In this document: piece by piece, positions 1-11,081 of the stretch
Layout of the letters: the number at the start of each line of letters is the position of its first letter
How positions within the stretch are numbered: position 1 is the first letter of the stretch
Source of the DNA: Candidatus Bathyarchaeia archaeon
GTDB lineage: Archaea; Thermoproteota; Bathyarchaeia; TCS64
Length of the DNA stretch: 64,000 nucleotides
Assembly: GCA_050014495.1 (NCBI GenBank)
Contig: JBEKDF010000015.1
Span: 1 to 64,000 of the forward strand
Direction of reading: 5' to 3'
The notes under the pieces: model-generated
What the model saw: the letters and a program-made list of their open reading frames with translations, nothing else
Database searches by the model: none
Told to the model about the DNA's origin: nothing
Position numbers and translations under genes: made by a program

Positions 1-191
1 TGAGTCATGACGAATCCATCTTGGAACATTAGGGCCATTCTAAAACACTATAGAATACTGGGGCCCTAATGGAATATATATCGCGTGCGTCGTCGCTACA
101 ATATATTAGGTTGTCTAAATCTGCGCGCGCGGATAAGATTTTCATCACACATCACTGTGTATGAATTAAAAAAACCGAACATGAAAAACGG

Positions 192-818
192 TTAGACATT
201 CATCCACTTATCGTAATGCAGTTTCTCCTCCAGCGATACAGCCTTCTGTTTAATCAGATAATCCTCAGGATAACCTATCGGAATAGCAGCCGCCACCTCG
301 TAGCCATCAGGCACACCCAACAACCACTTGAGGGAAGCCGTCTCGCGAGGCACACTGGTAACCCCATACAACCCCTCCGCCGCCATCGCCAACAAGATAT
401 TCTCAATACACATCCAAATCGAGGCCAAATCATTCAGATCATAAAGAATCTCACACTCCTTGAGGGGCTTCCTCAGCCTATAGCAGACGACGAGCAGCTC
501 CGGAGAACTCACCAGCATCTTCTCCTGAACGTGTAACGCCTTGCTGTACATCTCTTTCTGTAGTGGATCTGTCCAGTTACCTAGTGTCTTTTCAAGCTCC
601 ATCTCGTTCGTGATATTCTTCGCCTTTGAGACCAGCTCAGTGACTTTTTTCCTCTGCTCAGCGTCTTTAATGAGGATGAACTCCCACTGCCGTAGGTGGT
701 TATTTGAGGGGGCCTTGAGTCCTGCCTCTAGGATTCTTTGGAGTTTCTCTTTTTCTACGGGTTTTGTTTGGAACTTTCTTACGCTTCTTCTGTTGTTTAT
801 GGCTTCATAGAGATCCAA
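192..818 (-). CDS. Nitroreductase family protein (cassette cargo)
   Basis: N-terminal RRSVRKF and APSNNHLRQWEF nitroreductase motifs; IENILLAMAAEGLYG. Confidence 0.9.
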   Translation of the reverse strand: MDLYEAINNRRSVRKFQTKPVEKEKLQRILEAGLKAPSNNHLRQWEFILIKDAEQRKKVTELVSKAKNITNEMELEKTLGNWTDPLQKEMYSKALHVQEKMLVSSPELLVVCYRLRKPLKECEILYDLNDLASIWMCIENILLAMAAEGLYGVTSVPRETASLKWLLGVPDGYEVAAAIPIGYPEDYLIKQKAVSLEEKLHYDKWMNV

Positions 819-884
819 TTACCATTCGCCTCTCAACGTTTGTATGATATGTATGTATTTGCACGCGTGGTCCACCCATAAAAC

Positions 885-926
885 AATCACTGGTTGAGTA
901 TCAGGTGGAAGTGAGGATAAGGCTAT
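885..926 (+). repeat. Cassette-boundary site copy R1 (AATCACTGGTTGAGTATCAGGTGGAAGTGAGGATAAGGCTAT)
   Basis: Exact 17-mer core AGTGAGGATAAGGCTAT at 910-926; intergenic. Confidence 0.95.
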
Positions 927-964
927 AGCCGCAAACCCACACACACACTTGCTTACGATCACAA

Positions 965-1429
965 CTAACTAACACTAACCAGTATCCGTTTTTCCATGTA
1001 GACTCTGTCGTATCCCTCTTCAGATACAAGCCCAATATTCTTCCAACCCAGATGCTCGTAAATAACCTGATTCTCAACCATCATAACATTAGTGTAAAGA
1101 CGCATTACTCTATATCCCAACTTTAAAGCCTCAGACTCAGCGAAATCAATTAACTTTCCGCCAAACCCTCGACCCTGATACCTCGGCTTAATAGCAACAT
1201 TTTCAATCAGTAGATATTCCGTCTCAGGCACAAGAACAAGAACTCCCAGTAACTCAGACCCTAGACCTTCAAGGACCCAGATGTTCTTCTGTGTAACTGC
1301 CTCCACGTAATCTTCAAGCATTGGTGCGGGCTCCTTCCCTATTCTCTGTATGTAGAGGGTATACGCGTCTTTAATGCAGGCAGTTATCTCTGGAACGTCG
1401 TTGAGTACTGCACGTCGAATTTGGTGCAT
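965..1429 (-). CDS. GNAT family N-acetyltransferase (cassette cargo)
   Basis: NVAIKPRYQGRGFGGKL acetyl-CoA motif A; probable ATG at 1429 with TTAAATA box ~25 bp upstream. Confidence 0.9.
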   Translation of the reverse strand: MHQIRRAVLNDVPEITACIKDAYTLYIQRIGKEPAPMLEDYVEAVTQKNIWVLEGLGSELLGVLVLVPETEYLLIENVAIKPRYQGRGFGGKLIDFAESEALKLGYRVMRLYTNVMMVENQVIYEHLGWKNIGLVSEEGYDRVYMEKRILVSVS

Positions 1430-1461
1430 CGGTAATCTTATTTTATCATAAATATTTAACC

Positions 1462-1503
1462 ATTCACGAACACGAAAAGGTTGGGTTTGGGGGATAAGGC
1501 TAT
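1462..1503 (+). repeat. Site copy R2 (degenerate; ATTCAC...GGATAAGGCTAT)
   Basis: Exact GGATAAGGCTAT 1492-1503, with ATTCAC at the same 42-bp spacing as other copies. Confidence 0.8.
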
Positions 1504-2042
1504 GTCTCTGAAGAGCGTAGAATCCCAATTTGTCCAGGGTGCGTGACACGCCTCTGCTTATCCTCAGAGGAAAGAACCCCGTCTATCTTCTCCGCCAAGT
1601 ACTCCCAGTCATGCAAATAAATCATGCCCCACTCCTCTCTCCTGTACACCTCTACGATCGGCTTGAACTTGAACCACATAAGATGGACCCCCAGGCCAAC
1701 CCTCCACACGGTTTCCAAGTCTACTAAGCCAGTCCTGTACTGCCACCCGATCTCGTTGCATAGGTCGAAGAAGTGTTCGCGTAGGATGTAGTTCTCGGGG
1801 TTTACCCTCGAATCGTATTTTCTCTTGAAGTCGTCTGCGTCTGTCCACTGCATGGAGAGGAGCTCGGCGTAGTCTCTCGCCCCTTCGCGGCCGAATGTGG
1901 TGGTCATCAGGGCTAGCGAGAACGTTGCTTTTCTGTTCTTCGTCGTTTCCCTCAGGTTCACTATGTAGAACGCCGCTGCTACTAGTACTCCTGTGGCGGC
2001 TACCATGTAGTAGGCGGCCTGAATCTCACCTAGATCAACCAT
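1500..2042 (-). CDS. Membrane-anchored protein, DUF4760-like (paralog of 3444..3950)
   Basis: N-terminal TM helix then soluble helical domain (GWQYRTGLVD, WFKFKPIVEVYR, WEYLAE); stop codon lies inside site R2. Confidence 0.75.
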   Translation of the reverse strand: MVDLGEIQAAYYMVAATGVLVAAAFYIVNLRETTKNRKATFSLALMTTTFGREGARDYAELLSMQWTDADDFKRKYDSRVNPENYILREHFFDLCNEIGWQYRTGLVDLETVWRVGLGVHLMWFKFKPIVEVYRREEWGMIYLHDWEYLAEKIDGVLSSEDKQRRVTHPGQIGILRSSET

Positions 2043-2050
2043 AATCAATA

Positions 2051-2092
2051 ATTCACCTGATTACACTCAGGTAGAAGTGAGGATAAGACATT
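2051..2092 (+). repeat. Site copy R3 (ATTCACCTGATTACACTCAGGTAGAAGTGAGGATAAGACATT)
   Basis: AGTGAGGATAAG exact; ACCTGA/TCAGGT internal inverted repeat. Confidence 0.9.
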
Positions 2093-2248
2093 CGCCCGTC
2101 AAATACTTGTACGTTAGATGAGGCTAATGCCAAAGAGACTTTGGGATAAGATTTTCTGGTGTAATGTGAAACGTAGGAGAAGATTTTAATTAACAAAAAT
2201 CTTTATTCTTCAATGAACACGGAATAGATGACTCTTTGGTGATTCTGG

Positions 2249-3325
2249 ATGGATGAGGAATACCAGAGGCTCGCGGAACACTTAGACCACCTCCCAGACG
2301 GCTTCCCACCGAGTAAAACCTCAGCCGAGATACCCCTCCTAAAGAGACTCTTCACATCCGAAGAGGCAAAACTAGCTGTACATCTAACACTCAACAGAGA
2401 AGACGTACACACCATAGCGAGTAAGGCGAGCCTACCAGTGGAGAAAGTCAAGACCACCTTAGAAGAGATGGCCAGAAAAGGACTCATATTTCAAGCTCAG
2501 GAAGACGACCAAACAAAGTACCAAGCCGCACCATTCGTCATAGGAATCTACGAGTTCCAAGTAAACCGACTGACAGATGGCTTCCTCAAAGACCTGGGCA
2601 ACTACTGGAGCACCCAGGAGCAGCGCGACGAACCCAAGTCTATAAGCCAGATGAGGACCATCCCAATAAACGAGAGCATAGACACCCGACTCGAAGTACT
2701 ACCATACGAAAACGTCGAAGCACTAGTTGATGCCCACACTAAATTCGGGGTAGCATCATGCATCTGCAGGAGTAGAGCCAAGAAACTCGGCAAGGGATGC
2801 GACGCTCCCACTGAGACATGCCTATTATTTGGAGACTTCGCCGACTTCTACGTAAGAACTGGGAAAGGCAGATACATAACAAAGGATGAGGTCAAGGACC
2901 TACTTCATAAGGCAAATGAGGCAAACCTAGTCCTCAATCCAACAAACTCCAAGACTGTACAGGCGATATGCTGCTGCTGCGGATGCTGCTGTGGCATACT
3001 TAATGACCTCAAATACTCTCCTAACCCCTCTGAGGCATGCGCTAGCTCCTTCATCGCGCAACACGACGAATCAATATGCATAGCGTGCATGAAGTGCATC
3101 GACCGTTGCCAGATGGAGGCAATCACTGAGGACTCGGGCGTAGTCAAGTTCAACCAAAATAGATGCATAGGCTGCGGATTATGCGTGTCAACATGTCCAA
3201 CAGGGTCCATGAGCCTAAAGAGGAAATCTCAAGCGGACAAAGAGCTACCTGAGACATTCTTTGATACGTGGAGACTTAATGCACGGCAAAGAGAAGACGC
3301 CAATGTAGATACACACATGCATTAA
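2249..3325 (+). CDS. 4Fe-4S binding protein with N-terminal HTH-like region (inverted cassette cargo)
   Basis: CICR, CCCCGCCC and two ferredoxin motifs CIACMKCIDRC, CIGCGLCVSTCP. Confidence 0.9.
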   Translation: MDEEYQRLAEHLDHLPDGFPPSKTSAEIPLLKRLFTSEEAKLAVHLTLNREDVHTIASKASLPVEKVKTTLEEMARKGLIFQAQEDDQTKYQAAPFVIGIYEFQVNRLTDGFLKDLGNYWSTQEQRDEPKSISQMRTIPINESIDTRLEVLPYENVEALVDAHTKFGVASCICRSRAKKLGKGCDAPTETCLLFGDFADFYVRTGKGRYITKDEVKDLLHKANEANLVLNPTNSKTVQAICCCCGCCCGILNDLKYSPNPSEACASSFIAQHDESICIACMKCIDRCQMEAITEDSGVVKFNQNRCIGCGLCVSTCPTGSMSLKRKSQADKELPETFFDTWRLNARQREDANVDTHMH

Positions 3326-3397
3326 AACTATGCGTGTGCTTCAGTTACAGCCACCATGCAGAAGGTGGCTTGAATCTTTGCTGAATCAACCATTACA

Positions 3398-3438
3398 ATT
3401 CACTGCTTATGGTTAGGTGGAAGTTTGGATAAGGCTAT
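3398..3438 (+). repeat. Site copy R4 (ATTCACTGCTTATGGTTAGGTGGAAGTTTGGATAAGGCTAT)
   Basis: 15/17 match to core; between convergent gene ends. Confidence 0.92.
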
Positions 3439-3443
3439 TGAGC

Positions 3444-3950
3444 CTATGTCAGCAACTCGGGATGAGACGCCATGTAATCCATGAGTCTCCCGTAGACATA
3501 CTCCATCTCGCTCATGTAGCGACTATAATCGATCTCCTTTCTATACTTCTCAATCTCGGGCCTAAACTTCTCCCACAACCTCCTAGTCGGCCCAGCACAG
3601 TACAATGCGATCAGTTTAATGTCAACTAGATTCTCCCTGACGAGGACCCCGATCCCCTCCCACGTGGAGACGATTACTTGAAGTGACACTGCTTTTTCGG
3701 GATCGTTGATTCTCTTGGCTTTGAAGTCTTCGTAGCTATTCCATTTCGCTGAATCGATGTTTATTAGGTGTCTAGAAAATTCCTCGCTGCTGGTATTGCT
3801 GTGGAGCATCATGAAGAGTTGGGCTTCCCTCGTCTGCAGGGTCGCCTTCATGTTCCTCTGCTGGGATCGCAGGGTCATAATGTAGTAGATGGCCGCAACC
3901 GTCACGCTTGCCGCAGTGACCAATACTCCAATCGTCTGCGCATCGACCAT
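3444..3950 (-). CDS. Membrane-anchored protein, DUF4760-like (paralog of 1500..2042)
   Basis: TM helix VTAASVTVAAIYYI; WEGIGVLVRENLVD, LWEKFRPEIEKYR, MEYVY. Confidence 0.75.
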   Translation of the reverse strand: MVDAQTIGVLVTAASVTVAAIYYIMTLRSQQRNMKATLQTREAQLFMMLHSNTSSEEFSRHLINIDSAKWNSYEDFKAKRINDPEKAVSLQVIVSTWEGIGVLVRENLVDIKLIALYCAGPTRRLWEKFRPEIEKYRKEIDYSRYMSEMEYVYGRLMDYMASHPELLT

Positions 3951-3952
3951 AG

Positions 3953-3993
3953 AATCACTGGCTACAATCGGGTGGAAGTGAGGATAAGGCTAT
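3953..3993 (+). repeat. Site copy R5 (AATCACTGGCTACAATCGGGTGGAAGTGAGGATAAGGCTAT)
   Basis: Exact core at 3977-3993; fills almost the whole intergenic gap. Confidence 0.95.
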
Positions 3994-4004
3994 TGAAGAA
4001 GTAG

Positions 4005-4835
4005 CTACTTTACGAATCTAATGTCGAGACCGTTGACCTTCTCACGATCCAAAGCCACCATGTTCTCATTTGCCTCCCCGAGCAATCCATTCATCCTTAG
4101 AACCTTCTTCGCAGTACGCAGCGACTTGACACCTATGGACACGGATCTAATTGAGTAATCTCTGGAGGGCGTAAACCTCAGAGTCGGGCTCCTGCCAATC
4201 ATCCACGAATCCCCATCAGGCTTCAATGGACTGAGCAGGGTCTGCCAAGCCCTCATATCTCTCTTCACGTCCTTGACCCCCAACTCGATCTCCTTCACAG
4301 CCTTAGCCCCAAGCAAACCACCCCCAGCCGCATCAAACCTCGCCTTCATGATTCGGTTATGATCATCAAGATCCCTCGCCTCGGGAGCAGACGTGAAGGA
4401 CCTGAAGGCGAGCTGAGTAAACGTGCTGAAGTCGAGCATAATCTCCTTGAACAGTGGGGCTTGAAGCAGTACATCCCTACCCCACTCGGTCTCTTGGCCT
4501 GTCTCATCGGGCATCTTCGACGCATCGATCTTGTAGGAGATGCCTCTCTTATCGAGCTCTTTGATGCATCGATCGTAATTGATAGGTTGCATTTCTAAGA
4601 TCTGTAGCTTCGCTGGTTTACTGCTCATCAGGTAATCCTTGGGGTGGAACGTCAGAAACTTGAACCAGACGTTACCCATGTATATGCCTCCTCCTCTGAA
4701 TGATCCGTGGTCGGCTGGGGCGAAGTCCTCTGGGAGGCCTAGTGTGTTTGCGAATAGGTAGTGGAGTTTGTTTGCGTCTCCTGCGGTCTCAACTACGCCG
4801 TATATGCCTTGGATTCTCTTCACGATTGGGGCCAT
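4005..4835 (-). CDS. VOC/glyoxalase-like protein (cassette cargo)
   Basis: LFANTLGLP, GGIYMGNV, ELDKRGI, EIELGVKD pattern of VOC folds; start 4835 (ATG) or 4844. Confidence 0.6.
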   Translation of the reverse strand: MAPIVKRIQGIYGVVETAGDANKLHYLFANTLGLPEDFAPADHGSFRGGGIYMGNVWFKFLTFHPKDYLMSSKPAKLQILEMQPINYDRCIKELDKRGISYKIDASKMPDETGQETEWGRDVLLQAPLFKEIMLDFSTFTQLAFRSFTSAPEARDLDDHNRIMKARFDAAGGGLLGAKAVKEIELGVKDVKRDMRAWQTLLSPLKPDGDSWMIGRSPTLRFTPSRDYSIRSVSIGVKSLRTAKKVLRMNGLLGEANENMVALDREKVNGLDIRFVK

Positions 4836-4911
4836 AAAATTCACGATTTCTCATAGTATTATCATCATTTAACATTTACCTCAAATTTGGGAAAAATAGT
4901 TGTTCTCGAAT

Positions 4912-4937
4912 TCAGTTGGGAGTGAGGATAAGGCTAT
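4912..4937 (+). repeat. Site copy R6 (TCAGTTGGGAGTGAGGATAAGGCTAT; left arm lost)
   Basis: Exact core at 4921-4937; between divergent genes. Confidence 0.92.
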
Positions 4938-5026
4938 AGCCCCAAATGGCACAACCTGGTCCAATGAGAGCTGATTTTAAGGAAAAGTTATAACTGAATC
5001 AGAAGAACTCTAAACTGGTGTTATGA

Positions 5027-5515
5027 TTGCCATCTACTGGTCAAGCACCACCCCTAAACAGCGAAGAAATTGAATCAATGCTCGAAGAGAACCACTATTT
5101 GAGGATCTGCACCCACAACAGAGACGGAACCATACACGCCATGCCTGTTGCCTATAGGTACTTGAACGGTAAAATATTGATAATGTCCCTCATCAACAGC
5201 CGAAAAAACAGAAACATTGAACGAAACAATGACGTCACCGTGCTGGTTGATACAATGGACCCGTTGAGAGGTATTCTCATCTACGGTTTGGCGGAAATGG
5301 ACTATGACAATGTCTACGAACAGGTTCTTACAATTAATGAAACCAGCCCCGCATTCAGCGGCATGCCTAGAGAAAAGTTGGAGCGTGTCACCAGAGCCTA
5401 TGTAGACGCGTACAAACTCGCGATAGTAAAAATCATGCCACGACGCATCGTAACGTTCGACTTTACCAAAGATGAGGTTTGGGACAATTTCGTCAAAACT
5501 TATCTTCAGGATTAA
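5027..5515 (+). CDS. Pyridoxamine 5'-phosphate oxidase (FMN split-barrel) family protein (inverted cassette cargo)
   Basis: ICTHNRDGTIHAMPV, SRKNRNIERNNDVTV; own BRE/TATA GGAAAAGTTATAA at 4981-4993. Confidence 0.85.
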   Translation: MPSTGQAPPLNSEEIESMLEENHYLRICTHNRDGTIHAMPVAYRYLNGKILIMSLINSRKNRNIERNNDVTVLVDTMDPLRGILIYGLAEMDYDNVYEQVLTINETSPAFSGMPREKLERVTRAYVDAYKLAIVKIMPRRIVTFDFTKDEVWDNFVKTYLQD

Positions 5516-5547
5516 GGGAAACACGTGCGTATTTGCATCAACTATTC

Positions 5548-5588
5548 AATCACTGATTAGAGTCAGGTGGAAGTGAGGATAAGGCTAT
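5548..5588 (+). repeat. Site copy R7 (AATCACTGATTAGAGTCAGGTGGAAGTGAGGATAAGGCTAT)
   Basis: Exact core at 5572-5588; CACTGA/TCAGGTG bulged inverted repeat. Confidence 0.95.
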
Positions 5589-5642
5589 GACCCACACACA
5601 CAAACTAAGGATTCCAGAAAAAATTTAAAAAATGGATTTGAA

Positions 5643-5936
5643 CTACTTCTTCTTCTCTTTATAGTACTGCTCTACGAACTTTCCTGCATCAAGCAGAGGC
5701 ACGAACTTTAGCTTCCCTTCAGGCATGTAGTGGATCACGAGGGCGTTCAGCTGCTCCTCGCTAGGATCCTCGTATACTTGGACGCTTTTGAATTCTCCAC
5801 CGAAGCTATGGGATGCAAATGCAACCTTCGGGAACTTCTTCGATCCCTTTTCTCTATCAGCCATGGCAGACCTGAATTTCTCTATTATCTTTTCGAAGTC
5901 CTCAGGGCAGTACTCCAAAAAACTCATGACTTTCAC
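5643..5936 (-). CDS. Small hypothetical protein, DUF3303-like (cassette cargo)
   Basis: 97 aa ORF with RBS GAGGTGA (5941-5947); C-terminal KFVPLLD pattern. Confidence 0.65.
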   Translation of the reverse strand: MKVMSFLEYCPEDFEKIIEKFRSAMADREKGSKKFPKVAFASHSFGGEFKSVQVYEDPSEEQLNALVIHYMPEGKLKFVPLLDAGKFVEQYYKEKKK

Positions 5937-6091
5937 TTTATCACCTCACATCTCTTTTGGTACTTGTATAGCTCCCCAACCCGGAGCCGAGGTTCTACTA
6001 TTTTTTCATTGGAGCAGAACCTTGTTTGATGAGGGATAGGGCTTGCCTATAGTTTTATTGGTAAATAATCCAGAATTATTAGAATAATTTT

Positions 6092-6120
6092 GTATCAGGT
6101 GGAGGAGAGGATAAGGCTAT
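6092..6120 (+). repeat. Site copy R8 (GTATCAGGTGGAGGAGAGGATAAGGCTAT)
   Basis: 15/17 core match preceded by TCAGGTGG. Confidence 0.9.
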
Positions 6121-6257
6121 TGAGTGATTGATGTAGCTACCAGCAATTAGTAGGCAGGTTAAATCACATCAATCAAGTGTCAAATCTTCAGTTTCCCACT
6201 TGTGCCTAAAAAATTGGATAATTAATTTTCTTTTCCCCACTATTTATATATACTTTT

Positions 6258-7136
6258 CTATTCCACAACATTGCCAATTTCCTCAAGGAACTCTTTTAAA
6301 TGTAGGATATTTACAATACAAATATCCAGTTTTCTATGTTTGTTGAGAATAGAATGATCATTAATTACATTTTCCGATAGACTCACGGGCAACCATAAAG
6401 ATCGTGGAAGACTGAATCTATAAATTGCCCAAGGTACCTCAACCAAATTAATATCATTAACATTAGGAACCACTCCCTCTTCACTAATCTTTGAATTTGG
6501 AATATCCAAAACACAGATTTTAGCAGCTGTAGTTATTACTGGAAAATACAAACGACCCCTACCAGGCGATTCAATATTAGAAGACGCTCTTTTCATATAT
6601 GAAAAATCATCATTTATCACACCCAATGTCGCAATGCTAGCCTGTTTCGCCCCTTTTCTAATTTCACTATCCCCTGATCTTTTATCCTCATCACCTTCCT
6701 TACATAATTCATGGCTATCAACGGATATTGCATTTGCATAAATGCCTCGATCTGTTTGAAGACGAATCAAACTTTGACAGTGAGCCCAAGCTCTGTCCGT
6801 CGCACGATTATATTGTAAATGAAATTGAAAATCACCTCTACGCTTCGAGTCATCATGATGCGTAAGCACAAAAAATCCTCGTGTAGACAATTTTCGGAAT
6901 AATATCCATTTTTTATGTGAAGCCCGTCTAGCCTCGATCAAAGCGAATAAATTATCACGCCATGCCTTGAAGTCTATTGATGTTTCCTCAACTGGAAGGT
7001 TACTTGGATCAGGTAAGACAGAAACAGCGTAATCAATGTTAAAATTCCAGTGGACCTGTTCTAACTGTTCTGCAACTTTCATTTCAAAAAGGTAGCCCGT
7101 TTTTTCTAAGCCATCCCAATAATTAGAGCGTGACAT
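6258..7136 (-). CDS. Hypothetical protein, possible PD-(D/E)XK nuclease fold (cassette cargo)
   Basis: GYLFEMKVAEQL...SIDFKA...LIEARRA resembles the E...D...ExK nuclease signature; AT-rich. Confidence 0.55.
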   Translation of the reverse strand: MSRSNYWDGLEKTGYLFEMKVAEQLEQVHWNFNIDYAVSVLPDPSNLPVEETSIDFKAWRDNLFALIEARRASHKKWILFRKLSTRGFFVLTHHDDSKRRGDFQFHLQYNRATDRAWAHCQSLIRLQTDRGIYANAISVDSHELCKEGDEDKRSGDSEIRKGAKQASIATLGVINDDFSYMKRASSNIESPGRGRLYFPVITTAAKICVLDIPNSKISEEGVVPNVNDINLVEVPWAIYRFSLPRSLWLPVSLSENVINDHSILNKHRKLDICIVNILHLKEFLEEIGNVVE

Positions 7137-7325
7137 TATAGTAATCTAAGATATTTTTGTTAATAATGTTTATAAAATGTAGCATACTCACATTTGGCTG
7201 ACATTCACTCAACCGTCTCCTACTCTGATGTGCCTAGGATGCGCGAGCGCACTCACACTGAAAGTTTCTTTGGCGAATGGAAAAATCGTATAGTAAACGG
7301 GCCAAGCACATGAGCAACCTTTCCC

Positions 7326-7523
7326 CTAGTTGGATGCAAATTCAACAACTAGCAAAATAACTCCAACAAATGCCATTCCCATCCCAAGATAAATTGCCGT
7401 GTTCACGTCTATGAATCTGGTGTTAGTTTTAGATCTAATCTTCGTCACTAATGCGATTACTATTCCAGTGAGAAGTAAAATAATGCCTAGTCTACCAAGA
7501 ATCGAACTATACCACATGGACAT
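7326..7523 (-). CDS. Small 2-TM membrane protein
   Basis: 65 aa with two hydrophobic helices; TTTAAATA box at 7552-7560. Confidence 0.6.
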   Translation of the reverse strand: MSMWYSSILGRLGIILLLTGIVIALVTKIRSKTNTRFIDVNTAIYLGMGMAFVGVILLVVEFASN

Positions 7524-7624
7524 CTTTTTCGATAATTACTCAGTAATTGCTATTTAAATAGGTTAAAGACAAGCAACCCTGAGCCTCTTGATGGAGGGAC
7601 GGTGATATTGGCGCATAGAGATGT

Positions 7625-7648
7625 GGGGCGGAGTGAGGGTGAGGCTGT
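7625..7648 (+). repeat. Recombinase-proximal degenerate site copy R9 (GGGGCGGAGTGAGGGTGAGGCTGT)
   Basis: 14/17 core match at 7632-7648; all three differences are A>G transitions. Confidence 0.7.
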
Positions 7649-7890
7649 GAGGCCCCACGACATCTACGCGTGCTATTCCTGCGAGTTGAATAAAGTCACG
7701 CCATGCAAATACAGAAGGCGAGCCCGCTTCATGAGTAACCTGGACCAGTGGGCTAAATGCTCACACATATCTTAGTATGGGATGCGCGCGCGGATGATAG
7801 ATTATCTGCTTCATCCCTTTTGCGAGTTATGTCAACCATTAAAAGCGGGCGAGCTTAGCCTTGAGGAAAACTGGGCATATCCTTTGTAAT

Positions 7891-9270
7891 TTATTGATGA
7901 TGACCTTGGTCATTCAGGTTTTCCTCCTTTTCTGTTTTCGCCTCAAGGCCATAATCAGATAGGTTATTCATTATTTGATCAACCTCATCCCTAGATTCAT
8001 AGCCGAAGCCATGGTTCCATGCTATCACTTCCAGACATCCTCCTCTGCTAACTCTACACCTAATCTCCTTGGGTTTTCTAGGATAATACTTGCCACTGAG
8101 AACCTCGGGGAGTCTTTCACCGGCTAAATCCTTGAGGGGCTGAAGCATCCCCTTTTCCTCAAGACTTTTAGTTGTTCCGTCCGCCACTTTATTCTGTAGA
8201 ATCGTTATCTCCTGAGTTGTGAAGATTTGTTGGATGGTGTTTAGCTGGGCTTCGATCGAAGCCATGCGGGTTTGGTTGTTCCTCATCTCTGCGTCGTGGG
8301 CTTCAAGTTCCCTGATCTTAGCTTGAAGGTCCTCGACCTCCCCGGCGTCAACCTTCGAGGGGTCCTCTGAGAGAACGTTAAGCCACCTCTCTGCCTTGCG
8401 GTACTCCCTCCGGGTGTAGTCGATGTCCTCCATTGCCTTGTTGTAACCGAGGGGATCGACGACGTGTCCCATGAAGAACTCCGCCGCTAGGCTGTCGGCT
8501 CCGGACTTGTGCCACCTCGTCCTGAATGTGTCACGTAACTCATGGGGATTCTTGCCGTACCTCACACTTTTTCCTTGTCTAGTTTCGATGATTCCTAGTT
8601 TCTTCAGTGTCCAGGTCCAATACTGGGCGATGATCTTCTCGGTGATCGGTGTTCCCTTCTAATTTACGAAGATCGAACCCCCGACGTTAGGTCACGTCTT
8701 CATGTAGAACATTATGGCGTCTATAGCGTCGCGTCCGAGGAACGTATGGTATGAGCGCCTATTCTTCAGCTTCTTTCTGCCGGGAAGGTCAACCCTGATG
8801 GGTCGAACTCCAGCGTCTAGTTGCTTTTTAAGGTCAGCCAACCGGGCGTTGCTCCACTCCACCACCTCGCTGCATCCCATTCCTCCGGAGACCATGCATA
8901 GGAAGACCGCCCGGTAGAGTCTGTTGCTCTTAACAACCGCTTTTCTGATTTCATCATGGGTTAGGGAGCCGACGACCGGTGGCACTTCAACGCTGATCCT
9001 GAAACCCGGGTCGCGTGGAAGCTCAGCCCTATTATGCAGGAAGAAGGACTTCACTGCTGAGTAGTATCTCTCCTTGCTCTTCGCCCTACCCCTGATGGTT
9101 CTCATCCAGCCCTCAACGAGGTCGAGGACCCGATACCTGTCATCCCCCGCCGCCCTCTTCTGATAGGCTACAAGCTCATCGGGGGACAATCCCGATTGGT
9201 CTTCCCCATTCTCGGCCATCCACTCCATGAACTTCAGTAGCACATAGAAGTGTGCGAAAAAAGTGTTCAT
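7891..9270 (-). pseudogene. Tyrosine recombinase/integrase, interrupted by two in-frame stops (TGA 8692-8694, TAG 8659-8661); N-terminus probably truncated
   Basis: ORFs 8692..9423 and 7891..8565 share one frame; joined protein has YYSAVKSFF, LTHDEIRK, DLPGRKK, HELRDTFR (HxxR), FFMGH, LGYNK (Tyr nucleophile). Confidence 0.9.
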
Positions 9271-9447
9271 TTTAATACGGGACCGCCATGTAAATACCGT
9301 AGGACAGTGATACCAAGGGTGATTCAACAAACGTCGCGGAACGCTAGGCTCACACATACACTTCATCTCTATAGAATAATAGAACGTAGAGCTGTGAGTT
9401 TCAACAACGTTTTTATGAATCAACCCCGGCTAACTTGAGGCGATGCG

Positions 9448-10020
9448 ATGTTCAACTTAGTTACTCTTAAGGACACAATAAGAATAAGTCCGTCCAAATT
9501 TGGCCAACCTCTCGATGCCGCCGCCTACGATGAGCTCCGTGGCAAGTACGAAGGGCTCGTTGACGAGGAACTTGGCTACGTTATCTCAGTAATAAAGGTC
9601 GAAGTCAACCCCATCGGTCGCATCGTCCCAGGCGATGGTGGAACACACCACCAGGTTACTTTCAGTATCATGACCTTCTTCCCACAGCTCCAAGAGATCG
9701 TAGAGGGCGAAGTTGTAGAGGTCGCTGATTTTGGAACCTTCCTCAGGATAGGTCCAGTTGATGCCCTTCTCCACGTTAGCCAACTCATGGATGACTTCAT
9801 AAGTTACGACGAGAGGCAGGGCGTCCTCCTCGGGAAGGAGAGTGGACGAACCATCCAGAGAGGTGACCTCTTCAGGGTTAGGATGGTTGCTGTGAGCTTC
9901 CCCAAGGGAAGAAGCTCGGGTAAGATAGGTGTCACAGCTCGCCAACCTATGCTGGGAAAGATCGAATGGATAGAGACAGAGGTCAAGGCGATGGAAGCTC
10001 CCAAGGAGGAGAAGAAGTAA
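9448..10020 (+). CDS. rpoE1: DNA-directed RNA polymerase subunit E' (Rpo7)
   Basis: EGEVVEVADFGTFLRIGPVDALLHVSQ S1 domain; RQPMLGKIEW. Confidence 0.97.
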   Translation: MFNLVTLKDTIRISPSKFGQPLDAAAYDELRGKYEGLVDEELGYVISVIKVEVNPIGRIVPGDGGTHHQVTFSIMTFFPQLQEIVEGEVVEVADFGTFLRIGPVDALLHVSQLMDDFISYDERQGVLLGKESGRTIQRGDLFRVRMVAVSFPKGRSSGKIGVTARQPMLGKIEWIETEVKAMEAPKEEKK

Positions 10021-10205
10021 TGGCTCCGAAAGCATGCAGGACCTGCAAGATAATCACCGATGAAAACATTTGTCCCGTTTGCAAGAGCTCCGAGCTAAGC
10101 GAGGACTTTCTCGGCTTCGTCATCATACTCGACCCCTCAAAGAGTCAACTGGCCGAGAAGATGAAAATCAAAGAGGCGGGGCGATACGCCCTCAAGATCC
10201 GTTAA
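10020..10205 (+). CDS. spt4: Transcription elongation factor Spt4 (RpoE'')
   Basis: KACRTC...CPVC Zn ribbon, GRYALKIR; follows rpoE1. Confidence 0.95.
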   Translation: MAPKACRTCKIITDENICPVCKSSELSEDFLGFVIILDPSKSQLAEKMKIKEAGRYALKIR

Positions 10206-10257
10206 CAAACAGGACACGAGCCTCCCACAGATCAAGACTCTGTTTCTCCCGGAATCC

Positions 10258-10749
10258 ATGCGATACGAACTGAAGACACCACTTGGTGAACTTTATAGGG
10301 GTGAGCCAAAAGAAACAACCGCTCGCCTCAAAGAAAAATTCATGACGAAACCTCCACTTTTCGCCATCGTTGGGGACTTCGTCGCAGCTAACCTAATCGC
10401 TTGTGGGTTTTCACCTGATATAGTTGTGATCGATAATAAGACCCTCAGGGTCGAGGTTGAACCTGTAAAACATGGTATGAAGGAGATACAGGTTCCTAAC
10501 GAGGCTGCCACTATAAACGCCGAGGCATGGCTCGTTCTTCGAGCCGCGGTAATGCTTAAAAGGAGGTTAGCGGTAGTCGTGAAAGGTGAAGAGGACCTAC
10601 TGGTCCTCCCGCTGTTGGCTGAGATGCCCATTGGCTCGGTGATAGCCTACGGCCAGCCCCATGAGGGGCTTGTTGTAGTGACCGTGTCCGAGGAGAGGCG
10701 GGATTGGGCGCGGGAATTCCTCAACCGAATGGAGATGAAAAAACAGTGA
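10258..10749 (+). CDS. GTP-dependent dephospho-CoA kinase (DUF359)
   Basis: VGDFV, IDNKTLR, GEEDLL, YGQPHEG motifs; conserved position. Confidence 0.9.
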   Translation: MRYELKTPLGELYRGEPKETTARLKEKFMTKPPLFAIVGDFVAANLIACGFSPDIVVIDNKTLRVEVEPVKHGMKEIQVPNEAATINAEAWLVLRAAVMLKRRLAVVVKGEEDLLVLPLLAEMPIGSVIAYGQPHEGLVVVTVSEERRDWAREFLNRMEMKKQ

Positions 10750-11081
10750 AGCTGGAGTTAACATCCACCAAAATCAACAAGGTGATTGGCAGAAAGGAGC
10801 TATCCTTCAGGGTAACTGAGGCCTCCACTCCGAGCAGAGCCGACGTCAGACGTGAGATTGCAGTCCTCATGAGAACAGAGCTCGAAAACGTCTACGTCCG
10901 TACTATAGAGGCAAAGTCTGGTACACGTGTGACGACGGGTCTTGCCCATGTCTACAATGACGTGGCAACTGCTGAATCAGTTGAGCCCAAGTACATAATC
11001 GCACGAAACAAAGGGAAGGAAGTTAAGACTGAGGAGGAATCCGCTGCTCCCTCTGCAGCGCTTAAGGAGGAGAAGCAGTAA
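10746..11081 (+). CDS. rps24e: 30S ribosomal protein S24e
   Basis: [24 protein letters not shown] start overlapping upstream stop. Confidence 0.93.

What the first reader, a model, noticed from the sequence alone, without database searches (positions are those of the whole stretch)
131..9270. Integron-like gene-cassette array with a non-attC repeat and an adjacent tyrosine recombinase in an archaeon
Seen: a 41-42 bp direct repeat (core AGTGAGGATAAGGCTAT) ends at 926, 1503, 2092, 3438, 3993, 4937, 5588, 6120 and 7648. All copies are on the same strand and at gene boundaries, and I did not see the core in the remaining ~55 kb. Seven consecutive intervals (577, 589, 1346, 555, 944, 651 and 532 bp) each hold exactly one gene; the last interval holds two. 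The cargo is unrelated and accessory (nitroreductase, GNAT, two membrane paralogs, Fe-S protein, VOC-like, PNPOx, DUF3303-like, nuclease-like), with differing base composition and mixed orientation. A tyrosine recombinase gene closes the array. Established: one gene per site plus a neighbouring Tyr recombinase is the logic of integrons and pdif modules. However, attC sites have RYYYAAC...GTTRRRY ends and variable length, which these lack, and here the recombinase is co-oriented with most of the cargo. Inference: a distinct site-specific gene capture/shuffling system.
Basis: partly seen in the sequence, partly recalled or inferred. Interest (0 to 1): 0.95.

Follow-up and report, generated by a model that had tools for sequence, protein, structure and literature searches.

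The report
Cas1 docking sites bound archaeal cassettes
A 28-base site repeated about 200 times in this archaeon's genome separates single genes that turn up beside different neighbours in related genomes, and its core is also the sequence duplicated on both sides of small elements carrying a Cas1 (CRISPR-type) gene, so that enzyme, rather than the broken integrase next door, likely builds these integron-like arrays.

Summary
The repeat is real but not local. A profile finds 201 copies on 51 of 92 contigs and none in shuffles. Of 129 close pairs, 123 lie on one strand. Seven window copies are full sites, 1503 shares only the core, and 7648 is degenerate. Most copies are the start module of an expanded DUF4760 family. 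Units are reshuffled in register at the site. The adjacent integrase has two stops and its own attachment core, and does not track the motif. The 14-bp core is the direct repeat around solo-Cas1 elements that have terminal inverted repeats and no polymerase gene found. That Cas1 clade occurs in 8 of 10 motif-positive and 0 of 8 motif-negative genomes of the genus. Best reading, about 50%: a casposase-like Cas1 stacks gene modules at this core. Against it: most units lack inverted repeats, flanking cores are mostly not identical, and one single-contig genome has arrays but no Cas1. This scan reported similar arrays and the Cas1 link before, on other Bathyarchaeia DNA.

The parts
192..818 (-). 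Nitroreductase gene, cargo behind a DUF4760 start stump
   Evidence: Pfam PF00881; homologues at 74-81% in six other genomes end at the gene, without the site in the flank shown
901..928 (+). Site R1: 14-nt A arm plus 14-nt core (915-928); followed by a C/A-rich inverted-repeat-like arm (929-948)
   Evidence: 48.3 bits; junction class A|B
929..1491 (-). GNAT module (ORF 965-1435) with inverted C/A-rich and G/T-rich ends; likely a non-autonomous mini-element of the Cas1 family
   Evidence: Pfam; paired B arms; same module at 90% over 940-1490 between other repeats in G015
1479..1505 (+). Site R2: G/T-rich arm plus core (1492-1505); the core supplies the stop codon of the next DUF4760 gene
1500..2042 (-). 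DUF4760-family gene
   Evidence: Pfam PF15956 under cut-off; member of the 98-ORF cluster
2067..2094 (+). Site R3 (A arm plus variant core)
   Evidence: 35.9 bits
2105..2160 (+). Small gene-less repeated unit of about 80 bp found beside many sites
2249..3325 (+). 4Fe-4S protein gene, reverse to most cargo; joined to a DUF4760 start stump (3336-3393)
   Evidence: Pfam; paralogue on C33 without the site; stump
3413..3440 (+). Site R4
   Evidence: 38.6 bits
3444..3950 (-). DUF4760 gene, start 43 nt from site R5, stop 5 nt from site R4
   Evidence: Pfam PF15956 E 5e-13; all-helical model, pLDDT 85
3968..3995 (+). Site R5
   Evidence: 44.8 bits; same site-to-gene junction in G013 with another left neighbour
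4005..4844 (-). 279-aa cargo gene, no family found; stop 11 nt from site R5
4912..4939 (+). Site R6, followed by a short C-rich arm
   Evidence: 38.2 bits
5027..5515 (+). PNPOx-family gene, reverse to most cargo
   Evidence: Pfam PF01243
5563..5590 (+). Site R7 with a 4-codon DUF4760 stump on its left and a CA-rich arm on its right
   Evidence: 48.3 bits
5643..5936 (-). 97-aa cargo gene; an 88.5% copy of the unit lies on contig C77 without the flanking sites
6095..6122 (+). Site R8
   Evidence: 39.2 bits
6258..7136 (-). 292-aa low-GC cargo gene, no family found
7326..7523 (-). 65-aa small hydrophobic ORF; 92% copy between GC runs in G016
7623..7650 (+). R9: degenerate, inside a GC-rich inverted repeat; not a full site
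   Evidence: -4.3 bits; similar stretch in G002
7891..9270 (-). Tyrosine integrase pseudogene of the island, two in-frame stops
9387..9395 (+). Attachment core of the island: copy of the last 9 bases of the gene that precedes rpoE1 in relatives
   Evidence: other copy at the end of that gene on contig C37; empty site in 4 of 5 relatives, filled in G016

Best explanation
The repeat is a genome-wide boundary site whose 14-bp core is duplicated around small Cas1-encoding elements, and that stand-alone Cas1 likely stacks gene modules at the core to build the arrays. Shown: the site is the conserved start module of the DUF4760 family (14-nt arm, 14-nt core, then leader and start codon 43-50 nt on); units change neighbours with their edge at the core; solo-Cas1 elements have terminal inverted repeats and direct copies of the core, one of them inserted straight into a full site. 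Inferred: Cas1 integrates a module at a core and leaves one core between neighbours, as tandem casposons do; because a typical module ends in the 14-nt arm, each insertion would rebuild a complete arm-plus-core target, so arrays can keep growing; cargo genes get in when deletions or insertion sequences join them to a start module and the piece is then moved. Exchange between the repeated start modules likely adds further shuffling. The broken integrase at 7891-9270 only marks the island in which this array piled up.
For: Intact cas1 lies between two same-strand cores with inverted arms in G016 (L060: identical cores, 3.4 kb; L061: left junction is a full A site). In G027, another genus, a related 6.2-kb cas1 element has the same inverted arms and a perfect 13-15-bp direct repeat that resembles the core. 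Of 36 cas1 loci, 16 have an inverted-arm junction within 2 kb and 2 an A-only site; background in accessory DNA is 0.24 and 0.49. The Cas1 clade is in 8 of 10 motif-positive and 0 of 8 motif-negative genomes of the genus (Fisher p 0.001, overstated because kin are not independent). The site's size matches the A. boonei casposase target, leader from -15 plus a 14-bp duplication (PMC6614799 Results). A 662-bp unit that begins with the inverted arm and ends with the A arm occurs at 96.8% behind two different arms, the match starting at the first base of the core; 18 such mixed units are in the sampled DNA. In genus g5, 21 of 25 units begin with GGG and 6 with GGGGA (counted), the complement of the TCCCC end that casposase needs. 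Tandem casposons separated by one shared duplication are known (PMC4779613 passages). Four of five aligned Cas1 copies keep the E, H and D/E positions (their catalytic role is recalled).
Against: Ordinary A-type units have no inverted repeats. The two cores around such a unit are identical in only 29 of 165 cases (19.9 by chance; 22 of 108 against 16.3 in G000 alone), and the variable positions taken singly are at chance; over 26 nt adjacent sites are no more alike than random pairs. The four bases right of the CTAT travel with the unit (19 of 24 shared variants), which a duplication reaching two bases past CTAT would not give. Only 2 of the 12 paired inverted-arm elements have identical 14-bp cores; the window's GNAT element differs at two positions. 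G021, a single contig, has at least 17 variant sites but no Cas1 match; G007 and G010 have variant sites and no match to this clade. The inverted arms end in G at their 3' ends, the reverse of the A. boonei TCCCC end. No filled/empty pair was found in the DNA sampled, and no clean site-to-site excision joint was among those listed in eight runs. All G000 Cas1 copies are partial or may lack their start.
Confidence: 0.5

Rival explanations
1. The site is the promoter/operator of the expanded DUF4760 family; arrays are shuffled by general recombination between the repeated start modules, and Cas1 elements merely use the core as a landing site.
For: 125 of 201 sites are followed by a full or truncated DUF4760 start (79 full, 17 fragments, 29 start only), and 91 of 98 family ORFs lie within 300 bp of a site. 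Start codons sit 43-50 nt from the site, where this genome's TATA boxes fall. Lineage variants keep that spacing. Near-identical gene bodies carry different leaders, so crossovers also occur left of the site. Arrays exist without Cas1 in G021. Flanking cores are mostly not copies.
Against: The site scores only about 0 bits against a tRNA-derived promoter profile (tRNA median 10) and does so on both strands; most of its columns are 85-100% conserved against roughly 30-75% at nearby third codon positions. Perfect sites persist with no gene to drive (5588). Unrelated cargo ends within 26 nt of the next site in 27 of 60 same-sense cases. About 28 bp is short for general recombination (established knowledge, not tested). 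It does not explain the Cas1 co-occurrence or mixed-arm units.
Confidence: 0.28
2. An unidentified conservative site-specific recombinase exchanges strands inside the core (integron or dif-module logic), with A and inverted arms as two half-site types.
For: Both hybrid junction types and full palindromes occur; units carry the bases right of CTAT; two junctions without a site share only YTAT; 19 DUF4760 ORFs use the stop codon in the next core.
Against: No candidate tracks the motif: G021 gave no match for PF00589, PF00239, PF02371, PF01797, PF04986 or PF00078; G000 gave none for Y1, Y2, reverse transcriptase or resolvase. The G027 direct repeat is a true duplication around cas1. The A arms are not symmetric about a 6-8-bp spacer.
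Confidence: 0.14
3. A plain transcription-factor site or promoter with no part in mobility; the arrays are old tandem duplications trimmed by deletion.
For: Genome-wide, fixed distance to start codons, weak promoter-like score.
Against: Units change neighbours in register; the GNAT unit moved with the same edges; many sites face the 3' end of a reversed gene.
Confidence: 0.05
4. One reading: the tyrosine recombinase at 7891-9270 is the dedicated cassette integrase.
For: It closes this array; 5 of 12 tyrosine-recombinase genes in G000 have a site within about 3 kb; a G002 array starts beside another integrase.
Against: Pseudogene with its own attachment core; 191 of 201 sites are more than 3 kb from any such gene; arrays abut unrelated integrases and tRNAs; family not found with this query in G009, G011 or G016 (only a short remnant seen in G016) and present in 13 of 32 genomes of a genus with the motif in 2.
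Confidence: 0.03

Closest known systems
Casposons, especially tandem family-2 casposons of Methanosarcina (PMC4779613, passages read) and the A. boonei casposase target (PMC6614799, abstract and first part of Results read)
   Same: Stand-alone Cas1, terminal inverted repeats, a direct repeat of about 14 bp, repeated use of one target, neighbours separated by one copy of it, solo ends; target of about 15 + 14 bp.
   Different: No family B polymerase found in the elements scanned; 3-6 kb rather than about 6-20 kb; many gene-only mini-elements; about 200 targets per genome built into a gene family's start module; most units have no inverted repeats; end polarity differs.
Integrons and CALINs, including archaeal ones (Ghaly et al., bioRxiv 10.1101/2022.02.06.479319, passages read)
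   Same: Same-strand arrays of about one gene per site, mostly one orientation, stop codons often in the next site, heterogeneous cargo, clusters without an adjacent integrase.
   Different: No attC end motifs or stable fold; fixed length; the site lies at the gene's start and carries its leader; no IntI; arrays dispersed over many islands.
rAID-1 arrays of Bacteroidales (bioRxiv 10.1101/471110, passages read)
   Same: Arrays of small genes with repeated intergenic motifs beside a tyrosine recombinase; an expanded small-protein cargo.
   Different: There the recombinase is conserved and restricted to the arrays; here the neighbouring integrases differ from array to array and are unlinked.
pdif (dif) modules of Acinetobacter (search listing and abstract starts only; site anatomy recalled)
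   Same: Single genes between short sites, shuffled between loci.
   Different: Sites here are direct, not alternately inverted (123 of 129 close pairs on one strand), and lack two symmetric 11-bp arms.
CRISPR arrays (established knowledge)
   Same: A 26-30-bp direct repeat, a Cas1-family enzyme, polar arrays.
   Different: Intervals are whole genes of 0.4-2 kb; adjacent repeats are not copies of each other; no Rfam match in 1-11000.

Membership tests
Integron / CALIN | attC with RYYYAAC...GTTRRRY ends (motifs recalled) | tested here: not met
   0 of 9 sites have both ends in order on either strand; 3 have a lone GTTRRRY
Integron / CALIN | Stable single-strand hairpin of the site | tested here: not met
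   z from +0.9 to -1.4 for 8 sites; -2.2 only for the degenerate R9; no Rfam match
Integron / CALIN | IntI with its specific extra domain | tested here: inconclusive
   The two pieces hit no recombinase family in NCBIfam; the intact paralogue hits XerA/XerC models far under cut-off and no IntI model. No IntI alignment made; IntegronFinder is not available.
Integron / CALIN | One gene per site, same-strand array, shuffled order | tested here: met
Casposon | Stand-alone Cas1 outside a cas operon | tested here: met
   PF01867 and TIGR00287, under every subtype cut-off; the ORF lists around the copies show no cas operon
Casposon | Terminal inverted repeats | tested here: met
   Met for the Cas1 elements and paired mini-elements; not present on ordinary A-type units
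Casposon | Target site duplication | tested here: inconclusive
   Perfect in G027, L060, one L068 element and L131; 1-3 differences in most other pairs; weak or absent for A-type units
Casposon | Family B DNA polymerase gene | tested here: not met
   No PolB among 18 ORFs from five elements scanned; the L060 element is 3.4 kb with two ORFs
Casposon | Cas1 falls in a casposase clade | tested here: inconclusive
   Solved-structure hits are all weak (best 55 bits); no tree with reference casposases was built
Casposon | Integration activity at the target | not testable with these tools
   needs a biochemical assay
pdif module | 28-bp site with two symmetric arms around 6 bp, neighbours inverted (recalled) | tested here: not met
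   Conservation ends 4 nt right of CTAT; 123 of 129 close pairs are direct
CRISPR array | Near-identical adjacent repeats with short spacers | tested here: not met
   Modal spacing 575-650 bp; adjacent distance 3.65 against 3.72 for random pairs
Archaeal BRE-TATA promoter | Match to the genome's promoter consensus at the right distance from the start codon | tested here: inconclusive
   Right distance and best local score, but about 0 bits against a median of 10, on both strands; no RNA data

The most novel reading that the evidence does not exclude
A stand-alone Cas1 captures whole genes, with or without transposon ends, into self-renewing arrays of its own target site: a CRISPR-type enzyme running an integron-like gene-cassette system, with about 200 docking sites and about 100 diversified DUF4760 genes in one genome. 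It would be a living intermediate between casposon transposition and CRISPR spacer capture.
Probability: 0.3. Interest if true: 0.92.

Novelty: new variant of a known kind. Interest (0 to 1): 0.72.

Why it matters
Casposons are proposed ancestors of CRISPR adaptation, with their target duplication or ends as the source of the repeat (PMC4779613, PMC9939771, passages read). Here a Cas1 element family without a detected polymerase shares a core with hundreds of same-strand repeats that separate exchangeable genes. If Cas1 moves those units, the step from transposon stacking to a repeat-spacer array becomes directly testable with a 325-aa enzyme and a defined 28-bp target, and the pair could serve as a compact gene-insertion tool. 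Even on the weaker readings, the site marks the joints of much of the accessory genome of an abundant uncultured archaeal group, lies mostly on short contigs of this assembly (127 of 201 sites on contigs under 20 kb), and points to a 98-copy protein family of unknown function.

Tried and rejected
Adjacent integrase as the enzyme: rejected (own attachment core, broken, no co-occurrence). Other enzymes: IS200 Y1 in 6 of 37 genomes and not G000; IS91 Y2 in 1 of 5; reverse transcriptase 0 of 5; resolvase 0 of 5; IS110 in 12 of 37, all in genus g1, but its G000 copies are not beside sites and G021 has none. IS5/IS1182-like elements have their own ends at GC runs; they carry a core-like word upstream of the transposase, read here as a promoter. 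Origin-recognition-box likeness (motif recalled): no support, and my filter found no Cdc6 candidate. CRISPR-like copying of the whole repeat: not supported. Excess of DUF4760 5' stumps over 3' stumps in cargo units (43 against 2 by profile; 36 against 8 by DNA): set aside, because 3' pieces under 45 aa are mostly undetectable. Filled/empty pairs: none in the DNA held. Read data: 8 of 24 listed runs laid, contigs only; no clean excision joint among the joints shown, and the tables were cut; no RNA holder listed. DUF4760 fold: helical bundle, best Z 9.9 at rmsd 7.1, no convincing match; the Atlas returns only DUF4760 clusters; Foldseek against the PDB was not obtained. Viral contigs: 0 exact matches. 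Literature searches with no paper holding all terms; DUF4760 appears in 1 unrelated paper; one search listed 5 papers, none on this by title or abstract start. The Ghaly main text has 0 occurrences of 'Bathyarchae'; its supplementary tables, which I did not see, could list such genomes under Thermoproteota.

Full report
Observation. The window is the first 64 kb of contig C15 of a 3.1-Mb, 92-contig genome. The Atlas assigns close relatives of its DUF4760 protein mostly to Bathyarchaeota, and the runs that hold the stretch best are peat metagenomes. The repeat finder returns seven same-strand copies. A profile refined on the genome scores them at 36-48 bits; the copy at 1503 (-15.8) shares only the core and the copy at 7648 (-4.3) is degenerate. 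Conservation spans about 26 nt ending in CTAT plus four weaker bases, and fades leftward into a leader.

The motif is genome-wide. There are 201 copies at 15 bits or more on 51 of 92 contigs and none in two shuffles; 161 have a same-strand neighbour within 2.5 kb. Of 129 adjacent pairs within 2.5 kb, 123 are on one strand, and the commonest spacing is 575-650 bp. The exact word is in 10 of 17 other genomes of the genus and 0 of 43 outside it. Variants occur at the same position in other lineages, including at least 17 in the single-contig genome G021 of another genus.

What the site belongs to. A family of 98 ORFs is the largest in the genome, and 91 lie within 300 bp of a site; it is DUF4760. 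Read on the other strand, 79 sites lead into a full gene, 17 into an N-terminal fragment, 29 into a start stump, 72 into other DNA and 4 into a contig end. Start codons lie 43-50 nt from the site edge in 68 genes measured, and several unrelated cargo genes start at the same distance. This genome's TATA boxes peak 30-40 nt before start codons, so a promoter role is plausible. But the site scores only about 0 bits on a tRNA-derived profile whose own median is 10, equally on both strands, and its columns are far more conserved than neighbouring third codon positions. It is therefore under sequence-specific constraint beyond a basal promoter (inference). Nineteen DUF4760 ORFs end on the stop codon inside the next core and about 34 more stop within 23 nt of it.

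Units move. Among G000 and sampled loci of relatives, 97 pairs of sites have homologous right flanks; 53 are in exact register and 61 within one base, yet only 4 of 86 testable pairs share the left neighbour; one unit appears eight times in four genomes behind different left flanks. Of 25 whole-unit duplicate pairs, 11 could be tested, and all have different neighbours. Within G000, a 594-bp site-to-site unit is 95.8% identical on C29 and C75. For the window, the GNAT unit recurs in G015 at 90% over 940-1490 between a different pair of palindromic repeats, and the junction of site R5 with the 279-aa gene recurs in G013 with another left neighbour. Variants right of CTAT travel with the right-hand unit (19 of 24), leader variants with the left-hand unit (46 of 97), and variants inside the site with neither clearly (1 of 45 for close left-unit pairs). 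Some crossovers lie further left, in the N-terminal coding region. Eight public runs, all contigs, support the window's order where they bridge it and list no clean excision joint; contigs drop rare forms.

The integrase is a bystander. It has two in-frame stops. In G002, G009, G011 and G012 rpoE1 directly follows a 241-aa gene; in G000 and G016 an island sits there, bounded by a 9-bp duplication of that gene's end, with one copy at 9387-9395 and the other on C37. The G016 island keeps a remnant of the integrase and no motif. The integrase family was not found with this query in motif-rich G009, G011 and G016, and is in 13 of 32 genomes of genus g8, where the motif pattern occurs in 2. Only 10 of 201 sites lie within 3 kb of a tyrosine-recombinase gene. 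Integron hallmarks fail: no paired attC ends, no stable fold, no Rfam match; the IntI domain test was inconclusive.

The Cas1 link. G000 holds six or more stand-alone cas1 copies or fragments. I had set them aside because G021 lacks them; earlier notes of this scan on other Bathyarchaeia DNA led me to test their ends. The core also occurs with a second pair of arms, G/T-rich on the left and C/A-rich on the right, inverted to each other. In G016 an intact cas1 lies in a 3.4-kb segment that starts with one arm, ends with the other and is flanked by identical cores; a second lies in a 6.1-kb segment inserted directly at a full site. In G027, which lacks the A motif, a 6.2-kb relative sharing two small genes has the same arms and a perfect 13-15-bp direct repeat similar to the core. 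Of 36 cas1 loci, 16 have such an arm within 2 kb and 2 an A-only site, against 0.24 and 0.49 in accessory DNA; loci were chosen around cas1 and some are short contigs. Right arms are followed by left arms more often than chance (8 of 27 against 13 of 210). The clade is in 8 of 10 motif-positive and 0 of 8 motif-negative genomes of the genus (the G013 hit at 24% identity was counted as a different Cas1). No polymerase B was found among 18 ORFs scanned. The window's GNAT unit has this inverted-arm anatomy.

Mechanism. Beguin et al. (PMC6614799, Results read) show that the A. boonei casposase needs a leader from -15 and makes a 14-bp duplication, and that only the five terminal bases TCCCC of the donor matter. 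The site here is a 14-nt arm plus a 14-nt core. Krupovic et al. (PMC4779613, passages) describe tandem casposons separated by one shared duplication. I therefore infer that Cas1 inserts modules at the core and that modules ending in the A arm rebuild a target. Mixed units support this: 18 begin with the inverted arm and end with the A arm, and one such 662-bp unit stands at 96.8% behind two different arms with its edge at the first base of the core. In genus g5, 21 of 25 units begin with GGG.

Results against. A-type units have no inverted repeats. Their flanking 14-mers are identical in 29 of 165 cases against 19.9 by chance, with no excess at the variable positions taken singly. The bases right of CTAT move with the unit. 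Most paired inverted-arm elements differ at 1-3 core positions. G021 has arrays but gave no match for Cas1 or any other tested enzyme family, so its arrays must be relics, be served from outside, or need no dedicated enzyme. G000's own Cas1 copies look decayed. No filled/empty pair was caught. General recombination between start modules, with Cas1 elements as secondary guests, remains the main rival (0.28).

Comparison and novelty. It works like an integron array or a stack of tandem casposons. It is not an integron (attC tests not met) and not a canonical casposon (no polymerase found; most units lack inverted ends). Searches found no paper combining these terms; DUF4760 appears in one unrelated paper; the archaeal-integron preprint does not mention Bathyarchaeia in its main text (supplements not seen). 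The library lacks most subscription papers. Earlier notes of this scan describe the DUF4760 start module, similar arrays and a Cas1 link in other genomes; they are leads, not support, and the counts above are my own. Verdict: real, mobile, mis-assigned enzyme; new variant of a known kind; interest 0.72.

Noticed in passing
window 2105-2160 and about 25 other places in G000 (C7, C75, C85 and others): A gene-less unit of about 80-96 bp that often sits between two sites and carries a second core-like word; one 99% copy (C32:19880-19959) is joined at a non-site sharing only four bases.
   Followed up: partly
L097 (G015:C7:118248-118799): The GNAT unit lies between two copies of a different 24-25-bp quasi-palindrome with GGGGA...TCCCC-like ends, so a second site family accepts the same module.
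   Followed up: partly
window 123-130, 7240-7250, 7784-7791 and many junctions: Alternating GC runs at truncation points of DUF4760 stumps and at the ends of IS5/IS1182-like elements, as earlier notes reported.
   Followed up: partly
window 6040-6095; also G000 C34:13697, C77, C87, C91 and L020: A roughly 50-bp AT-rich upstream element with an internal inverted repeat precedes different genes, with or without the site, joined at a shared CTGA; possibly a portable operator-promoter.
   Followed up: no
G000 C17:57461-58785, C48:5777-7101: IS110-family elements; the C17 copy lies next to an IS5/IS1182-like end.
   Followed up: no
G000 C40, C44, C56; L021, L023, L035: Arrays often begin next to tRNA genes or tRNA 3'-end duplications and unrelated integrases, so they collect in integrative islands.
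   Followed up: partly
G021 (single contig, 2.3 Mb): No PF00589 match at all, not even an XerA-like gene, in this search; either a limit of the search or an unusual loss.
   Followed up: no
L065, L062, L061, L071: Cas1 elements share small uncharacterised genes and, in two cases, a 286-305-aa ORF with no Pfam match where casposons have a polymerase.
   Followed up: partly
window 6258-7136: 292-aa low-GC ORF with no Pfam or NCBIfam match; the nuclease label is untested.
   Followed up: partly
G000 C74, C52, C77, C88: A third arm type (ending ...GTGAAAATGGAA) precedes the core in front of some DUF4760 genes and escapes the profile, so 201 is a lower bound.
   Followed up: no
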